Origin: Octopus sinensis
Taxonomy: Eukaryota
Length of the DNA: 64,000 bases
Assembly (NCBI RefSeq): GCF_006345805.1
Contig: NC_043011.1
Span: 49,798,464-49,862,463 of the forward strand
Reading direction: 5' to 3'
Shown piece by piece: positions 8,565 to 59,374 of the stretch; position 1 is the first letter of the stretch, and each line of letters starts with the position of its first letter. The notes below the pieces were generated by a model, which was given only the letters and a program-made list of their open reading frames with translations, was not told the DNA's origin and did not search any database. The position numbers and the translations under genes are program-made.

Positions 8565-8942
8565 AGGCGCAGGAGTGGTTGTGTAGCAAGTAGCTTGCTT
8601 ACCAACCACATGGCTCCGGGTTCAGTTCCACTGCGTGGCACTTTGGGCCAACAAAAGCTTTCTGAGTGGATTTGGTAAAACGGAAAATGAAAGAATCCCG
8701 TTGTATATTTGCATATATGTATATATATGTGTATATCTGTGTCTCTTCCCCCAACATCGCTTGACAACCGATGCTGGTGTGTTTACGTCCCCGTAACTTG
8801 GCGGTTCGGCAAAACCGACCGATAGAAGGAGTACTAGTCTTACAAAGAATAAGTCCTGGGGTCGATTTGCTCGACTAAAGGCGGTGCTCCAGCATGGCCG
8901 CAGTCAAATGACTGAAACAAGTAAAAGTAAAAGTAAGTAAAA
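8565..8942 (+). mobile_element. tRNA-derived SINE family A
   Basis: A/B-box-like head, internal (TA)/(TG) tract, 3' end ...gtcaaatgactgaaacaag(taaaag)n. Confidence 0.9.
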
Positions 8943-9001
8943 GCAATATATAGTTAGATAGATAGATAGATAGACACATACATACAATCATACATATATA
9001 T

Positions 9002-9400
9002 ACTCTTTTACTCTTTTACTTGTTTCAGTCATTTGACTTCGGCCATACTGGAGCACCGCCTTTAGTCGAGCAAATCGACCCCAGGACTTATTCTTTGTTA
9101 GGCCTGTACTTATTCTATCGGTCTCTTTTGCCGAACCGCAAGGTGACGGGGACGTAAACACACCAGCATCGGTTGTCAAGCAATGCTAGGGGGACAAACA
9201 TACACACACACACATATATTATATATACATACATATATACGACGGGCTTCTTTCAGTTTCCGTCTACCAAATCCACTCACAAGGCTTTGGTTGGCCCGAG
9301 GCTATAGTTGAAGACACTATCCCCAAGATGCCACGCAGTGGGACTGAACTCGGAACCATGTGGTTGGTAAGCAAGCTACTTACCACACAGCCACTCCTAT
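9002..9400 (-). mobile_element. SINE family A
   Basis: Reverse complement of the preceding copy. Confidence 0.9.
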
Positions 9401-14508: not shown

Positions 14509-15062
14509 GTTGTTGTTGTTGTTGTTGTTTTGTTATTAATTTAGTAAAATCAAACGAAAGAAAATAATAAATTTCAATGAAGTACTTTCCTATTATGTTA
14601 GGATGCAAGTGATTAAATTAACAATATTTTAAAGAAATTACATTATCTTTCTTACAAACAACTTCAAATACTAGTGTGTAATTGAAAAAAAATTTTTTTC
14701 AAATTTTCCTTCTTTATTTTGACCGATGAAATCTCAGCTGAATCGATAAGGCGACAAGAGGATATTCACTTATAATGGTAGCATTTGTTTGATATTACTG
14801 GCAGTGGTGGGAGGTAGCGGTATCAATGGCAGCGACGAGGGCGACGGAGGTGAAAACGACGACGAGGATGATAAGGATGAGGATGAGGATGATAACGATA
14901 ATGATGACGATAATGAAGATGGCGATGAGGACGATGATGGTGATTACGAGGCTGGCAGTGACGAAGATGAAGTTGACGAGTATGACGATGACACGTGATC
15001 GTGATAATGATGACGTCGATGATGACGACAACGATGATGTCAAAGAAGATGATGAAGATGAG

Positions 15063-15225
15063 TGCAGGAGTGGCTGTGTGGTAAATAGCTTGCTTACCAA
15101 CCACATGGTTCCGGGTTCATTCCCAATGCGTGGCACCTTGGGCAAGTGTCTTCTACTATAGCCTCGGGCCGACCAAAGTCTTGTGAGTAGATTTAGCAGA
15201 GGGAAACTGAAAGAAGCCCGTCATA

Positions 15226-15304
<79 letters not shown>

Positions 15305-15535
15305 TGTGTGTGTGTGTGTATATTTGTGTGTCTGTGTTTGCCCCCCCCCATCATCGCTTGACAACCGATGCTGGTGTGTTCATGTCCCCGTAACTTAGCG
15401 GTTCGGCAAAAGTGAACGATAGATAAAGTACTAGGCTTACAAAGAATGAGTCCTGGCTTCGATTTGCTCGACTAAAGGCGGTGCTCCAGCATGACCGCAG
15501 TCAAATGACTGAAACAAGTAAAAGAGTAAAGAAAG
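15063..15535 (+). mobile_element. SINE family A
   Basis: Full head-to-tail match to other copies. Confidence 0.9.
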
Positions 15536-15761
15536 AGAGAGTATGATAACTGCTAATGTTTATGACAATGGCGGCTATTGTGATATGAAGAAAATGGAAA
15601 CAGCTTTTGTTGGTTTCATGTAGAATAACCGGCAAATGATAATTGTGAGTAGCATTATAAGATAACCAATATATTTATGAAGTCCGCTCTGATTTCCCTT
15701 GTACAACTGCCCTTTAGTTGACAGTCACACACAATACATGTTCCGTATATAAATCATTATA

Positions 15762-19390: not shown

Positions 19391-20129
19391 TGTTGATGGT
19401 TTTGTAATCCAAATGGCTATATCAAAGTCGTCCTTCATTCAACATTCGTAAATGCTGCGGTGAAATCCATATATGAGTTTATGCTATAATCTTCGAAATT
19501 TTGAGACAATGCAGTCACTGTACTTCGGTAACGTGGATCATTTGAACTTGTAATTTATTTTCACTGAAATAAGTAATGCAGAGCCATCTATACTTCACTT
19601 ATTCTAGCACTTCCTACCAATCCGCGGCCCTGGACTGATTGTAATTTTTATGTCTTTATCAGCCCAGAGTGTATGAAGGTAAAAGTTAACTTCTGCGGGA
19701 TTTGAATTTGAACTCGGGGTGCAGAGAGTAAAAGTAAATACTCCTAGAGATGCATACGCGCACAAACCGTACCCACACAAACACACATACACACATATAG
19801 AAATAATATACAAGGAATTTTCAACAACTGACTTGATGTAATAGTTATATACTAAGAGTGCTCAGTTTGATTTACCAATATAATCTGGCTTCAACACAAC
19901 TTGAAATATATCGTGGTGAAATTGCCTACCAAAGTTGACTGCAAGTGGTTATTCCTCAAGCGGGTGGATAGGCATACACATATATAATCATATATATAAT
20001 TTTATATTTTATATATTTGATATATTTTGTATATTATATTAATTAATTTTATTTCTATGCATTGATCTATGTTTTTCACTGTTTGATTTGCCTAATAGTG
20101 GCTTTATCTCTAATTTAATATATATATAT

Positions 20130-20517
20130 ACTCTTTTACCTGTTTCAGTCATTTGACTGCGACCATGCTGGAGCACCGCCTTTTAGTCGAGCAACTCGAC
20201 CCCGGGACTTATTCTTTTTGTAAGCCTTATTCTATCGGTCTCTTTTGCCGAACCGCTAAGTAACGGGGACATAAACACACCAGCATCGGTTGTCAAGCAA
20301 TGCTAGGGGGACAAACACAGACACACAAACACACACACACATATATATACATATATACGACGGGATTCTTTCAGTTTCCGTCTACCAAATCCACTCGCAA
20401 GGCTTTGGTCGGCCCGAGGTTATAGTAGAAGACACTTGCCTAAGGTGCCACACAGTGGGACTGAACCCGGAACCATGTGGTTGGTAAACATGCTACTTAC
20501 ACACAGCCACTCCTGCG

Positions 20518-22617: not shown

Positions 22618-22663
22618 GACACCTGATGAAGGCTGGAGGGCATATCAGCCGAAAAGTTGTGTT
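22618..22663 (+). ncRNA. Minimal hammerhead ribozyme
   Basis: gacac-CTGATGA-a-ggctg-gagggcatat-cagcc-GAAA-ag-TT-gtgtt; the inverted copy restores cg in stem III. Confidence 0.75.
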
Positions 22664-23714
22664 AACAAAAAACAAGATGAGGACAAATATCCGTCAAATG
22701 TAAATAATGTAAATAATATACATAATTCCTCATCTCTTAAATATATAACTGTACTGGGGTTGATATTATCGATTTCCGCTTACTTCCTAAATGTCAGTTG
22801 CTGTGCCAGAAGTTTGGAGTAAGAAAGGGTTAGTTTACTGCATCAACTCTTATATTTCATGGATGTTTTATTTTAGAAACCCCCGGAAGGAAGAAAAACA
22901 AAATTGATTGCAGTAGGATTTAATCCCAGAATGTAAAGAGCCGAAGGAAAAAAAGTAAAGGTTTTTACGAAGCTGCAACGATTACCAATATACCAGCTTT
23001 ACGCCGAAAGTAATTATTACATCTATTGTTATTGTTGTAGTTGGCGTTGTAGTTGTTGTTTTGGTGAATGGTTGAATACCAGAAACGACGGAACATCTGA
23101 CTTTACTAGTTATATCTCACGTTCTGATTCCAAATGCCATTAGTATTGCTTTGCTTTTTGCGGTTAAGATTAAATTGAAAAGTCTGAGTTCAATAATAGA
23201 GGTCGGTATCATAATAAATTTACACTTCTCATCTCGCAAAATTGACGTCTTGTGACATCACTAGAAAATATGCTAAGCTCGTAAAGATTGGATGAGGAAG
23301 AAGGCAAAATCTATCAAGGTATTTGGCTACGTTTTTAATCCGACCGTGGTTTACTTTTCTTGTATCCTGGAGAAAATAGGAATAATATATTGAAGCCTAC
23401 AAATCGATTGTTTTGCTTTTAAATCCGTGGTCCATAAAATGAAGTACCAGTCAATTACTAGGTTCGATATAATCCACAACCCACGCTGTGCAAAATTGCC
23501 GGCTATGTGCCTAAATCACAGACTATTATTATTATTATTATCATTATTTTTATTATTATTATTATTGTTGTTATTATTGTTGTTGTTATTGTTGTTGTTG
23601 TTATCAACATTACCATCATCATCAGTAGTAGTAGTAGTAGTTGTAATAGTAATACTAGTAGCAGCAGCAGTAGCAGTAGTAGTAGTAGTAGTAATGTTAT
23701 TATTAATGGCTTCA

Positions 23715-26893: not shown

Positions 26894-27099
26894 CGTATAC
26901 ATGTACATAACTATTTATACATTTATGCATGCATGTATCATTAACTGTATACAACGCTTTAAATCAGCATGTGAATCAATGAAAGGGCAATACCATTTGC
27001 ATATACAGTTACATACGTGCGTATAAGTACAAATGCGTATGTATAAAACTATATACAATTATATGTATATATACATACACACATTATATATATATATAA

Positions 27100-27378
27100 A
27101 ATATTATTAGAGACAAAACCACTATTTTGCAAAACTTCATAATTTGAAACTGACTTATTGGAAGTCCACCTGAAGATTGTCGATCAAGACAAGAAACAAT
27201 TGTAGTGGCGTTTTTTTTGACTATTTATAAAATTTTAGTATTGATTAAGTCTTTCCTTGTTTGTTTGCAAAATAGTGGTTTTGTCTCTAATATATTTTAT
27301 AATATTTTACTATAAAATTGGATTTAATCCTAAATCTGATTTTTTCCCTGTAAATTTGATTTATTCCCTAATATTTTA
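27100..27378 (+). mobile_element. Short Penelope-type element with 5' inverted arm and HHR
   Basis: attagagacaaaaccactattttgcaaa (27106-27133) inverted at 27264-27291; in (TA)n; related arm at ~36397. Confidence 0.7.
27166..27208 (+). ncRNA. Minimal type I hammerhead ribozyme, fully canonical
   Basis: ccac-CTGAAGA-ttgtc-gatcaa-gacaa-GAAA-caattg-TA-gtgg; palindromic stem III acaattgt; cleavage after A27204. Confidence 0.9.
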
Positions 27379-30188: not shown

Positions 30189-30232
30189 GTCGCTGAAGAG
30201 GTCACAGGGTGTATGGCGAAAGATATCTAGAC
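30189..30232 (+). ncRNA. Hammerhead-like motif, one base missing in stem I
   Basis: gtcg-CTGAAGA-g-gtca...tggc-GAAA-gatatc-TA-gac; palindromic stem III agatatct. Confidence 0.5.
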
Positions 30233-33712: not shown

Positions 33713-34125
33713 CAGGCGTAGGAGTGGCTGTGTAGTTTCCTTACGAACCACATGGTTCCGGGTTCAATCCCACTACGTGGCACCTTGGGCAAGTGTCTTC
33801 TACTATAACCTCGGGCCGACCAAAGCCTTGAGTGGATTTAGTAAACAAAAATTGAAAGAATCCCGTCGTATATATGTATGTATATATAGTTGTTTCTATA
33901 TATGTTTGTGTGTCTGTGTTTATCCCCCCAACATCGCTTGACAACCGATGGTTGTGTGTTTACGTTCCCGTAACTTAGCGGTTCGGCAAAAGAGACCGAT
34001 AGAATAAGTACTAGGCTTACAAAGAATAAGTCCTGGGGTCGATTTTCTCGACTAAAGGCGGTGCTCCAGCATAGCCACAGTCAAATATCTGAAACAAGTA
34101 AAATACTAAAAGAGTAAAAGAGTAA
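33713..34125 (+). mobile_element. SINE family A
   Basis: Match to other copies. Confidence 0.9.
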
Positions 34126-36299: not shown

Positions 36300-36388
<89 letters not shown>

Positions 36389-36870
36389 TATATTAAATTA
36401 GAGACAAAACCACTATTAGGCAAATCAAACAATGAAAAACTTAAGCCAATACATAAGATATATTATATATATAACCGAGCAATTGTTTAACATGTCCAGG
36501 AAAACTAATTTATATTGGTCGTTGCTACACGTATTTTGTGAAAATATTTGGTCGGTTCGTCTAGTCTGTGTGCTGAAGCATTGCCTTTCATTTCCCTTGT
36601 ATTGTTGGCGAACCCTGTGAGAAGCATATAGAGTAGAATGCTTGGATACTATAGAACAGAGAACAAACACACGTTATTTGTTAATAAGTTAATTTCATGA
36701 GATTTAATTTAGTTAAATTTTATTTAAAGACTGCAAATTCGGGCGAGGTTAATCTTTTTCTTCGTTCTTTCTGAGCTGATGAAATAAAGTACCAGTCAAG
36801 TAATGAAGTCGATGTAATTGACTAGCGCCCACCCTCAAATTTTCAGGCTTTGTACCTATAGTAGAAAGAA

Positions 36871-39057: not shown

Positions 39058-39684
39058 TCATTGGACAATATGTCGGCATTATAAAATCAAAACCGCAGAC
39101 AAATGGTATAAACATCATCCTGAAGCTGTGACTGAGGGAGAAAATGTATCGATTCTATGGGACTTCCCCGTGTAGACCGACAGGACTATAAAAGCTAATA
39201 AACCGGATATTATTATAAAAGATCAGACAAAAAGGAAGTGTTTATTAATTGACATGAGTATTCCCTGTGATCACAATATAGCGGCGAAAGAATTTGACAA
39301 GATTAGTAAATATAAAGACCTGCTAATAGAAATTGAAAAAATGTGGCACCTCAAGGCGACTACAGTACCAGTTATTGTAGGATCTCTAGGAATGATAAAA
39401 AAAAGGTACTGAAACCTATTTGAAAATGATTCCCGGCCTACCATCCCTACAGGAAGTGCAAAAAATCGTATTAACTGGAACGGCTCATGTACTGAGAAGA
39501 GCACTATCGCTATGAAAATAACATCCATCCATGAATTTATTTATTTATTAATTTTTAAATACATATTTTATCTGTGAATTTGCGCGTGTAATTTGGGAAT
39601 GCATACAATGCCCTTCTCTGCCCTAGGTGTATGGAAAACACTCGGCGAGAAACGGAAGAAAATTTGAATAAAGAAGGAAAAAAC
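39058..39684 (+). mobile_element. 5'-truncated R4/Dong-clade LINE (RLE domain plus 3' UTR)
   Basis: ILWDFPV*TDRTIKANKPDIIIKD...LIDMSIP...KISKYKDL...TAHVLRRAL; followed by (AAT)n. Confidence 0.85.
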
Positions 39685-39730
<46 letters not shown>

Positions 39731-39731
<1 letters not shown>

Positions 39732-40448
39732 CACCAGAAATTACCAAAAACATGTAATGAAAAGAAATATTACAAGTAACTGCAGAATATGTGGAGATGG
39801 ACAAGAAACAATAAATCATATTATCTCTAGCTGCCCAGTCGTGGCTATGAAGGAATATATTCACAGACATGACAAAGTTGGAACCTACATACATTGGAAG
39901 CTATGCCAACATTATGGAATAACAACAGAAAAAAGATGGTATAGGCACACACCAGAAAAGGTCACAGAAAACGAGAAAGCAACCATACTCTGGGATATGC
40001 CGATACACACAGATAGAGAAATTAAGGCCAACAGACCAGATATAGTTGTCAGAGATCATGAAGAAAAACATGCTTTCTAATTGATGTATCAATACCGGCA
40101 GATGACAACGTGTCTCTAAAAGAAATGGAGAAACTCTCAAAATACAAAGACCTGGAAATAGAGGTAACTAGAATGTGGAATCTGAAGACAGAAACAATTC
40201 CTATCATAGTAGGTGCATTAGGCATGATAAAAAAATATTCAGACAAATACATAACAAAAACACCAGGACTTACAAACACATATAACATACAGAAAATTGC
40301 ACTACTAGGCACTGCACACATCCTACGCAGAACACTTTCCATACAATAACCATCAGAGCATCACAACAAATCACAGCACATACCCAAGGCACACAGAGCT
40401 GCGCTCGGTAGTGAAGTGAAAGCACGCTATAAAAATAAAACTACTGAA
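39731..40448 (+). mobile_element. Second R4/Dong-clade LINE 3' end (CCHC finger plus RLE, one frameshift)
   Basis: CRICGDGQETINHIISSC, RHDKV, ANRPDIVV, EKLSKYKDL, LLGTAHILRRTL; (AAT)n on both sides. Confidence 0.9.
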
Positions 40449-46605: not shown

Positions 46606-47735
46606 CAAGGGTTGGACAAAAGAATGGAAACACCTAGCATCATTACATCATAATTTTGAAATATCTATAAAACCGTAAAAAATCTTATTTAATTTTGTTT
46701 TTTGATTCATTATTAGTGTTGCTTATTATGTTTTGCTAAAATTGCTGTTTCTTTTCAGTTGTAATCAGAAAAAGGTAATTGAAATTCATTAAAATGACAG
46801 ATCTATCGGACTTTCAAAGAGGTCAAATTGTTGGTGCTCTATGGCAGGCGCTAGCGTAACAAAAATAGCCGAAATGTTTGGTGTATCAAGAAGTTCTGTC
46901 TCGAAAGTAATGACATCCTTTGAGAAAGAGGGACCGTCGAACTCCTACGCGAATTGTTAAAAAGCATCACAAAAGTACAGCTCCCAAAATTACTGCAGAG
47001 CTTAATGACCACCTCGAGTTTCCCGTGCGCTGTACAAAGCTGGATTTCACGGGAGGGCTGCAATCAGAAAACCACTACTTTCATAAACAGGCATTGCAAA
47101 GCATTTAGAGTGGAGTAAAAACCTATACAATTGGTCCCTAGGGCAGTGGAAGAATGTTATTTTCTCAGGCGAGTCATCCTTTATCTCATTTTCGACCACC
47201 GGCTAAGTATACGTGTGGAAACTGTCTTCTTCCAACTGTTAAGCATGGAGGAGGATCTGTGATGATATGAGGGGCTATATATTGGAAATCCGCCGGCCTG
47301 ATGGTTTCCTTTCATGGCAGAACTAATAGTCAAGACTATTTAAGCATTTTATCTCATCAAATTCATTCTATGGTTGCGGAACTGTTTCCGGAGGGAAACA
47401 CAATCTTTCAGGATGATAATGCACCAATTCACTCAGCTAAAGTTGTTACTGAATGGCACGAAGAACATTCTAGTGATGTTGAACATCTTATCTGGCCACC
47501 ACAGTCCCTAGATCTGAATATTATTGAACCTTTATTGTGCATTTTAGAAAAACAATTAATGAGTCAATATCATCATCACTACAAGAAGTGGAGACTATTT
47601 TAGCTGAAGAATTGACAAATACTCCTTTAACAATTCAGATTTTGTACGAGTCCATACCTCGTAGAATTCTAGGTGTAATTACTGCCAAAGGCGTTCCTAT
47701 CCCATGTTAGAATAAATTTGCTTAAAATTTTCAGA
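46606..47735 (+). mobile_element. Tc1-family transposon, decayed transposase
   Basis: TIR-like caagggttggacaaaagaatggaaacacc; MTDLSDFQRGQIVGA from 46794; FQDDNAPIH...WPPQSLDLNIIE (DD34E). Confidence 0.92.
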
Positions 47736-58889: not shown

Positions 58890-58943
<54 letters not shown>

Positions 58944-58971
58944 TATATATATATATATATATATATATACA

Positions 58972-59374
58972 CTCTTTAACTTTTTACTCTTTTACTTGTT
59001 TCAGTCATTTGATTGCGGCCATGCTGGAGCACCGCCTTTAGTCGAGCAAATCGACCCAGGACTTATTTTTTTGTAAGTCTAGTACTTATTCTATCGGTGT
59101 CTTATGCCGAACCGCTAAGTTACGGGATCGTTAACACACCAACATCGGTTGTCAAGAAATGCTGGGGGGACAAATACAGACACAGAAACATATATATCTA
59201 TACATATATACAACGGGCTCCGTTCAGTTTCCGTCTACCAAATCCACTCACAAGACTTTGGTCGTCCAAAGGCTATAGTAGAAGACACTTGCCCGAGGTA
59301 CCACGCAGTGGGACTAAAGCCGGAACCATGTGGTTGGTAAGCAAGCTTGTCACCACACAGCCACTCCTGCGCCT
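58972..59374 (-). mobile_element. SINE family A
   Basis: Match to other copies. Confidence 0.9.

What the first reader, a model, noticed from the sequence alone, without database searches (positions are those of the whole stretch)
27166..27208. Canonical 43-nt minimal hammerhead with palindromic stem III
Seen: all core nucleotides, paired stems I and II, a GUA triplet and the self-complementary acaattgt. Established: such minimal HHRs cleave as dimers. This is the best candidate for a direct activity test. A related terminal arm at ~36397 has no visible HHR.
Basis: partly seen in the sequence, partly recalled or inferred. Interest (0 to 1): 0.7.

Follow-up and report, generated by a model that had tools for sequence, protein, structure and literature searches.

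The report
Hammerhead in spliced Penelope retrotransposon scrap
The hammerhead motif is real but is one of over 2,500 copies of the end repeat of a Penelope-type jumping gene; this copy lacks the element's intron, so it was likely copied from the spliced messenger RNA, the ribozyme likely cuts only weakly and as a pair, and a small excess of copies that begin at its predicted cut site hints that it may cut in living cells.

Summary
The 43-nt type I hammerhead is present as described, with the cut predicted after 27204. It is not fully canonical: pair 10.1-11.1 is U-A here and never G-C in 213 family arms. It is not locus-specific either: its 32-nt core occurs 2,533 times in G000. It lies in a ~290-bp, promoterless, head-to-head insertion in (TA)n, derived from the terminal repeat (pLTR) of a Hydra-clade Penelope-like element (telomerase-like RT plus GIY-YIG). 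Long copies carry a ~1.8-kb GT-AG intron ending 9 nt before stem I. The window copy is exactly spliced and starts at the likely transcription start. Genome-wide, 679 spliced versus 441 unspliced junctions were counted (one variant), with an excess extra G at the start. Templates were therefore likely capped, spliced, sense RNA with an uncut ribozyme. Copy ends are 2.6-6.4 times denser at the cut site than just upstream, which fits minor in vivo cleavage or RT stalling. Stem III stays self-pairing across subfamilies (A-U, G.U, G-C). This is a known pairing in a new family. The scan found this family before on other DNA (e1-9912788, e1-10097286, e1-9957499).

The parts
27166..27208 (+). Minimal type I hammerhead: stem I 4 bp, stem II 4 invariant bp plus a U-A closing pair, palindromic stem III 27196-27203, predicted cut between 27204 and 27205
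27134..27156 (+). Exon 1 of the element's 5' leader (23 nt), starting at the likely transcription start. In long copies it is followed by a GT donor and a ~1.8-kb intron
   Evidence: L061, L063; 23 of 23 identical
27157..27301 (+). Exon 2 up to the first fixed end (+148). The splice junction is 27156/27157; the AG acceptor of long copies lies 9 nt before stem I
   Evidence: 95.6% to L063
27302..27378 (+). ~80-bp 'tail' up to the second fixed end (+229 to +235), running into (TA)n. In long copies the RT/GIY-YIG ORF starts about 50 nt further on
27090..27135 (-). Short inverted arm ending at the +148 site in (TA)n. It includes an exact 29-bp inverted copy (27105-27133) of 27264-27292 and is joined to exon 1 over a 2-nt overlap
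36379..36472 (-). Truncated short-end arm of a sister subfamily; too short to reach the hammerhead
   Evidence: 88% over 94 nt
20033..20139 (+). Older, more diverged terminal arm of the same superfamily; no hammerhead
   Evidence: 77% over 111 nt

Best explanation
The hammerhead is the standard pLTR ribozyme motif of a young Hydra-clade Penelope-like retrotransposon, here inside a ~290-bp intron-less, head-to-head fragment that was likely reverse-transcribed from the element's capped, spliced mRNA and is likely inert at this locus. SHOWN: family membership, exact intron loss, two fixed 3' ends, (TA)n targets, a 5' wall at -23, and a modest excess of ends at the cut site. INFERRED, in five steps. 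(a) The promoter in the pLTR starts an mRNA 23 nt before the donor, and splicing puts the ribozyme 9 nt into exon 2. (b) The GIY-YIG domain cuts (TA)n, and RT primes twice inside the RNA, at +148 and at +229/235. (c) The two cDNAs run towards the cap and are joined head to head. On a spliced mRNA this gives at most 170-260-nt promoterless scraps; long copies come from unspliced or read-through RNA, which is why they keep the intron. (d) Most templates are uncut, because most arms cross the cut site. (e) The ribozyme likely cuts slowly, as a dimer paired through stem III and probably with help from the element's protein, and a minority of arms (roughly 1-12%, by how wide the window is drawn) likely come from cut 3' products. 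I put step (e) at about 0.5.
For: Copy number: 2,533 exact 32-nt cores, control 0. Long copies link exon 1, a GT..AG intron, the HHR, the tail and an ORF. The ORF has the Hydra motifs RIKWK, DKT, YRDD, CxCX5C linker, GIY-YIG and CxxC..E..N..CxH, and its model (pLDDT 78) matches telomerase RTs best (E 1e-9). Spliced junction 679 vs unspliced acceptor 441, variant A only. In 134 distinct arms from 90 loci, 60 are spliced and none of these passes -23; 66 end short, 67 end long and 1 runs on; 38 of 39 pairs have one long and one short end; in 4 of 39 the arms do not overlap, so neither is a copy of the other. Of 100 listed spliced arms that reach -23 (156 in all), 82 stop there, and 37 of the 82 have an extra G, against 22 T, 15 A and 8 C (counted by eye; p 6e-5 vs 25%). 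Cut site: 12 arms end at +47..+49 against 7 at +39..+45 or 13 at +39..+46; ratio 2.6-6.4, p 0.015 to 9e-5. L258 has its arms ending at +48 and +47, and 6 of 39 pairs have both arms ending at +54..+74. Stem III self-pairs fully in 206 of 213 arms, as A-U, G.U or G-C.
Against: No cleavage and no RNA were observed. 18 of 100 spliced arms run past -23, so the wall is not absolute. Many extra-G cases could equally come from the partner arm by microhomology. The cut-site counts are small, made by eye and corrected with assumed filter pass rates. Six arms end at +46, two bases upstream of the cut, which a cut RNA cannot template unless 'TA' is filler. End density downstream of +63 was not measured, so the excess may be a step rather than a peak. 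Covariation over 7 representatives does not beat shuffles (123-129 of 500). In context the hammerhead stems are minor folds (P stem I 0.04-0.25 for the window copy). One subfamily has a central U.U in stem III (duplex -2.9). Non-overlapping arms could result from later deletion in palindromes. Pfam finds nothing on the ORF. None of the 4 copies translated has a complete ORF.
Confidence: 0.8

Rival explanations
1. Same element, but the ribozyme folds without cutting in vivo; ends near +46..+63 are RT stalls at stem I or at the dimer's stem III, or joining preferences.
For: 16 of 134 arms end at +48..+63, mostly at +53..+63, the 3' foot of stem I. Six arms end at +46. There is no G10.1-C11.1 pair; from recall, not from a call, other pairs there lower the rate. 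In Anolis, HHR mutants did not affect insertion and no RNA-seq reads ended at the cut site.
Against: To reach +48, RT must already have melted stem I. The +48/+49 ends lie in GC-rich sequence while the depleted +39..+45 is AT-rich, the reverse of what microhomology with AT-rich partners predicts. L258 has both arms at the site and L274 restarts three times at +46/+48/+49. The catalytic core is invariant across 5 subfamilies.
Confidence: 0.4
2. It is a self-contained non-autonomous element, either a retrozyme or a MITE with 29-bp terminal inverted repeats, that moves as a unit.
For: The window copy alone looks like a TIR element with a ribozyme in the middle, and many copies are short.
Against: The inverted arm varies from about 20 bp to several kb between copies. 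There are no tandem HHR units. The same sequence is the leader of the RT/GIY-YIG ORF.
Confidence: 0.04
3. This particular copy has been co-opted as a host regulatory ribozyme.
For: The core is intact, and any host read-through on the + strand would include it.
Against: It is 95-97% identical to other copies, so intactness reflects youth. It has no dimer partner in the window. No host gene was evident in 32 of 91 ORFs scanned, although short exons would be missed.
Confidence: 0.03

Closest known systems
Hydra clade of C-terminal EN+ Penelope-like elements, incl. Hydra-1_Obim (Craig et al. 2021, PMC8557442; passages, section 11 and supplement passages read)
   Same: RWK-like, DKT, CxCX5C, CxxC and CxH motifs; C-terminal GIY-YIG; (TA)n targets; HHR in the terminal repeat; inverted 5'-truncated copy with a one-sided tail. 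Listed Hydra HHRs also often lack G-C next to the core.
   Different: By eye a different family from Hydra-1_Obim (different N-terminus and HHR). It has a ~1.8-kb 5' intron, an Asn-rich linker, an ~80-bp tail (30-40 bp in the paper), an 8-nt palindromic stem III rather than 4 bp plus a loop, and many spliced copies.
Minimal type I HHRs of metazoan PLEs (Cervera and De la Pena 2014, PMC4209133; parts 1-2 of 4 read)
   Same: Short stem I, palindromic helix III, location in the pLTR, mostly single scattered copies, some pairs on opposite strands. An intron 3' end next to helix I, as in D. virilis.
   Different: No G10.1-C11.1 pair, and no unpaired base after A9 unless the variable A/U pair is read as unpaired; stem II is 4-5 bp, not the 7-8 bp reported for Schistosoma.
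Poseidon PAc of Anolis (Frangieh et al. 2024, PMC11167929; parts 1-2 of 4 read)
   Same: Two fixed internal RT start sites bounding a tail, AT-rich targets, both strands cut and extended, uncut RNA as the main template.
   Different: Different clade. Here both start sites lie upstream of the ATG. The paper found no reads at the HHR cut, whereas here genomic ends are modestly enriched there.
Penelope of D. virilis and A. vaga (PMC2377424, PMC3846280; passages read)
   Same: 5' intron in the pLTR, head-to-head palindromic junctions, Asn-rich ORF inserts (A. vaga).
   Different: These papers stress intron retention, and PMC3846280 proposes self-priming on an antisense template while not excluding an unspliced sense one. 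Here hundreds of exactly spliced copies point to sense mRNA templates.
Metazoan non-LTR retrozymes (bioRxiv 10.64898/2026.07.22.740005, part 1 of 5 and passages read; PMC7229834, search listing only)
   Same: Type I HHR, non-coding short copies, link to PLE pLTRs.
   Different: Not a tandem array of HHR units; it is the leader of a coding element.

Membership tests
Type I minimal hammerhead | Core C3-U4-G5-A6-N7-G8-A9, G12-A13-A14, A15.1-U16.1, NUH triplet | tested here: met
   invariant in 7 representatives, N7 = A/U/C
Type I minimal hammerhead | Stems I and II pair | tested here: met
   centroid of the 43-mer; 100% and 91% of cells paired; minor fold in longer context
Type I minimal hammerhead | Palindromic helix III for a dimer | tested here: met
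   perfect 8-nt palindrome, duplex -6.4 kcal/mol; 206 of 213 arms self-pair
Canonical hammerhead consensus | G10.1-C11.1 pair (highly conserved per PMC4209133) | tested here: not met
   U-A in the window; U-A, A-U, A.A, U.U or A.C in all 213 arms
Type I minimal hammerhead | Self-cleavage | not testable with these tools
   only indirect: excess of copy ends at the site
EN+ Penelope-like element | Single ORF, telomerase-like RT plus C-terminal GIY-YIG | tested here: met
   motifs in one 859-aa frame; fold search top hits telomerase RT; Pfam blank; GIY-YIG by motif only
EN+ Penelope-like element | pLTR with HHR, inverted truncated copy, one-sided tail | tested here: met
Hydra clade | RWK and DKT motifs, CxCX5C linker, CxxC/CxH around E and N, (TA)n targets | tested here: met
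   against the definition (RWK reads KWK here); CCHH absence judged by eye only
Hydra clade | Placement in the clade on an RT tree | not tested
   published Hydra proteins were compared by eye only
Non-LTR retrozyme | Tandem non-coding units each with an HHR | tested here: not met
   single HHR in an inverted insertion; the sequence is the leader of a coding element

The most novel reading that the evidence does not exclude
The thousands of scraps of this family are a genomic 5'-end map of a Penelope-like element's germ-line RNA. They show RT using sense, capped, spliced mRNA, primed twice at two fixed sites. This would explain intron retention as survivor bias, since spliced templates yield only promoterless scraps. 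They also record in vivo cleavage by a minimal hammerhead that lacks the G10.1-C11.1 pair and sits a conserved 9 nt after a splice acceptor.
Probability: 0.4. Interest if true: 0.65.

Novelty: new member of a known kind. Interest (0 to 1): 0.4.

Why it matters
The ribozyme itself is an expected part of Penelope-like elements. The family matters because two questions are stated as open in the papers read. One is which RNA is the template and why introns are retained (PMC3846280, PMC8557442). The other is what PLE hammerheads do in vivo (PMC4209133, PMC8557442, PMC11167929). Exactly spliced copies ending at a likely capped start argue for sense mRNA templates, and the step in copy ends at the cut site gives a testable prediction of low-level in vivo cleavage. 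Searches listed no paper on spliced genomic PLE copies or on PLE copies ending at the HHR cut; the library lacks most subscription papers.

Tried and rejected
Rfam: no hammerhead among the 150 of 196 matches listed for the whole window or on 27120-27270. Pfam on the ORF and on three homologues found nothing useful; the PDB sequence search gave one weak retron RT hit (E 0.005). A predicted hairpin that sequesters the ribozyme with downstream sequence is not kept across subfamilies, so it was rejected as a conserved switch. Spliced versus unspliced context made no predicted difference to stems I and II. Covariation was not significant against shuffles. MITE and retrozyme readings were rejected (see rivals). 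Sequencing runs: no RNA holder listed, and no reads or contigs were laid, so expression and RNA ends are untested. L264 first looked like a cut-site end but is a stem III mutation, and L268 and L269 are internal deletions of the ribozyme; all three were dropped from the count, and the duplicated L263 was counted once. Two papers checked for the effect of the 10.1-11.1 pair did not address it. The sequence look-up of earlier findings returned nothing.

Full report
Observation. The sequence at 27166-27208 reads as a type I hammerhead: CCAC, CUGAAGA, a 5-bp stem II with a 6-nt loop, GAAA, the palindrome ACAAUUGU, A17, then GUGG, with the cut after 27204 (coordinates checked). The centroid fold has stems I and II; the energy is unremarkable (z -0.48). 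Closing stem III in the monomer is unfavourable (-5.4 vs -6.2 kcal/mol), while two palindromes form an 8-bp duplex of -6.4. Rfam does not detect it. The pair next to the core is U-A rather than the G10.1-C11.1 that PMC4209133 calls highly conserved.

It is a repeat. A search of G000 (2.72 Gb) with the surrounding 192 bp gave 125 matches from 40 scored of 1,483 candidates, the best at 90-98%. The exact 32-nt core occurs 2,533 times, control 0. The genome is likely an octopus; this is inferred from named homologues at 56-58% identity. In the window the motif lies in an insertion at 27090-27378 between (TA)n runs: a short inverted arm, a 23-nt segment, the ribozyme region and an ~80-bp tail.

The parent element. 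Walking upstream showed long copies in which the 23-nt segment and the ribozyme region are separated by ~1.8 kb that begins GTAAG and ends TTTTAG. The acceptor is 9 nt before stem I, and the same spacing holds in the sister subfamilies seen unspliced. About 50 nt after the tail an ORF begins. It has RIKWK, DKT, YRDD, a CxCX5C linker, a GIY-YIG motif and CxxC/CxH motifs, matching the definition of the Hydra clade (PMC8557442 section 11). Pfam is blank, but a model from an 11-sequence alignment matches telomerase RTs best (E 1e-9). Of 93 matches listed, four were translated and none has a complete ORF. Hydra-1_Obim in the paper's supplement is, by eye, a different family.

Spliced copies. The window copy joins exon 1 to exon 2 exactly at GT-AG. 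For sequence variant A, the exact spliced junction occurs 679 times and the unspliced acceptor 441 times; variant B was not counted. I sampled 90 loci on contig C1: 70 from the listing (anchored 3' of the ribozyme) and 20 (which need a whole core and so under-sample ends inside it). They hold 134 distinct arms: 60 spliced, 34 unspliced, 11 ending at 0..+4, 3 at +5..+47, 16 at +48..+63 and 10 further 3' (+0 = 27157). No spliced arm in the sample passes -23. Genome-wide, 156 spliced arms reach -23; of the 100 listed, 18 continue into upstream element sequence and 82 stop. In those 82 the next base on the sense strand is G in 37, T in 22, A in 15 and C in 8 (counted by eye); the element has C there. 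This fits copying of a cap, but many of the Gs also match the partner arm, so it is suggestive only.

Two primings. 3' ends are bimodal: 66 at about +148, 67 at +229 to +241 (the upper values include overlap with the TA run) and 1 running on. 38 of 39 head-to-head pairs have one end of each kind. The short-end arm reaches further 5' in 19 pairs, the long-end arm in 11, and 8 are equal; in 4 pairs the arms do not overlap at all. This parallels the two internal RT starts and double-strand extension of Anolis PAc, and fits two cDNAs better than a snap-back, though later deletion in palindromes is not excluded. PMC3846280 favoured antisense self-priming to explain intron retention and left sense templates open; an antisense template cannot give exact GT-AG loss. 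My inference is that spliced mRNA yields only promoterless scraps, so long surviving copies keep the intron.

Does the ribozyme cut? Most arms cross the cut site, so most templates were uncut, as in PAc. A filtered search for arms ending at +47..+54 gave 135 hits, mostly small indels. Among the 100 listed, 12 distinct arms end at +47..+49 after inspection of the loci (three look-alikes dropped, one duplicate counted once). The control just upstream gave 18 hits in all, with 7 ends at +39..+45 and 6 distinct ends at +46 (by eye). Per position the ratio is 2.6-6.4, p 0.015 to 9e-5, depending on how +46 and +47 are assigned and on assumed filter pass rates. L258 has arms ending at +48 and +47; L274 restarts at +46, +48 and +49; 6 of 39 pairs have both arms ending at +54..+74. 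Against cleavage: most of the cluster sits at +53..+63, the foot of stem I; the +46 ends need a 'TA' filler; density beyond +63 was not measured. I give cleavage about 0.5 and stalling on the fold about 0.4.

Selection on the fold. Among 213 family-like arms in the fetched loci (copies of about 5 subfamilies, not independent), N7 and loop II (5-13 nt) vary while the core is fixed. The middle of stem III is AAUU in 77, GAUU in 96 and GAUC in 33, all self-pairing, AUUU in 3 (central U.U) and broken in 4. Position 10.1/11.1 is U-A, A-U, A.A, U.U or A.C, never G-C. On 7 representatives 95.6% of cells pair, far above the slid controls (20-63%), but covariation does not beat shuffles. In longer context the stems are minor folds in four of six representatives tested.

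It is worth doing on the family, but the expectation should be low. PLE min-HHR monomers did not cut and dimers cut weakly, the Anolis ribozyme needed protein, and 1 of 9 retrozyme dimers cut. This locus has no family partner for a dimer. The arm at 36379-36472 lacks a ribozyme because it is truncated before it.

Verdict. A real motif of a known kind in a PLE family not found in the papers searched. The scan has already noted the same spliced family on other DNA of this genome, and cut-site scars in other genomes; I reached my reading before seeing those notes. Interest 0.4, for the family's record of template use rather than for this copy.

Noticed in passing
window 22618-22666 (+): A second, unrelated minimal hammerhead candidate: GACAC/GUGUU stem I, CUGAUGA, unpaired A, 5-bp stem II closed by G-C, GAAA, but a UU at the cleavage position. 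Likely the end of another Penelope-like family.
   Followed up: no
window 30193-30221 (+): CUGAAGA...GAAA core match with a weak stem II; doubtful.
   Followed up: no
L063:5351-8917 and L064:69-5131: A Polinton/Maverick-like insertion interrupts a copy of this element's ORF: a 1,189-aa polymerase-like ORF, a double-jelly-roll capsid (PF21738, E 1e-29) and an A32-like ATPase.
   Followed up: partly
L268, L269: Internal deletions that remove the ribozyme between the two strands of stem I, as if RT jumped across the hairpin.
   Followed up: partly
L113, L127, L155: Arms with 4 extra bases after exon 1 (GTAA in L113 and L127), suggesting a second donor 4 nt into the intron.
   Followed up: no
L222, L219, L224 between RT and endonuclease: ~100-aa Asn-rich, low-confidence linker (residues 487-586 of the model), like the N-rich inserts of Adineta Penelope ORFs.
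   Followed up: no
L063:1966-3075: The intron holds ~400-bp internal repeats that include diverged copies of the sequence upstream of exon 1.
   Followed up: no
window 47271-47600 (+) and 39592-40077 (+): Fragments of a DDE_3 transposase (E 1e-9) and of a zf-RVT non-LTR retrotransposon (E 2e-5).
   Followed up: no
window, e.g. 8714-9219, 15053-15542, 33883-34118, 58914-59212: Many ~200-290-bp dispersed SINE-like repeats in both orientations.
   Followed up: no
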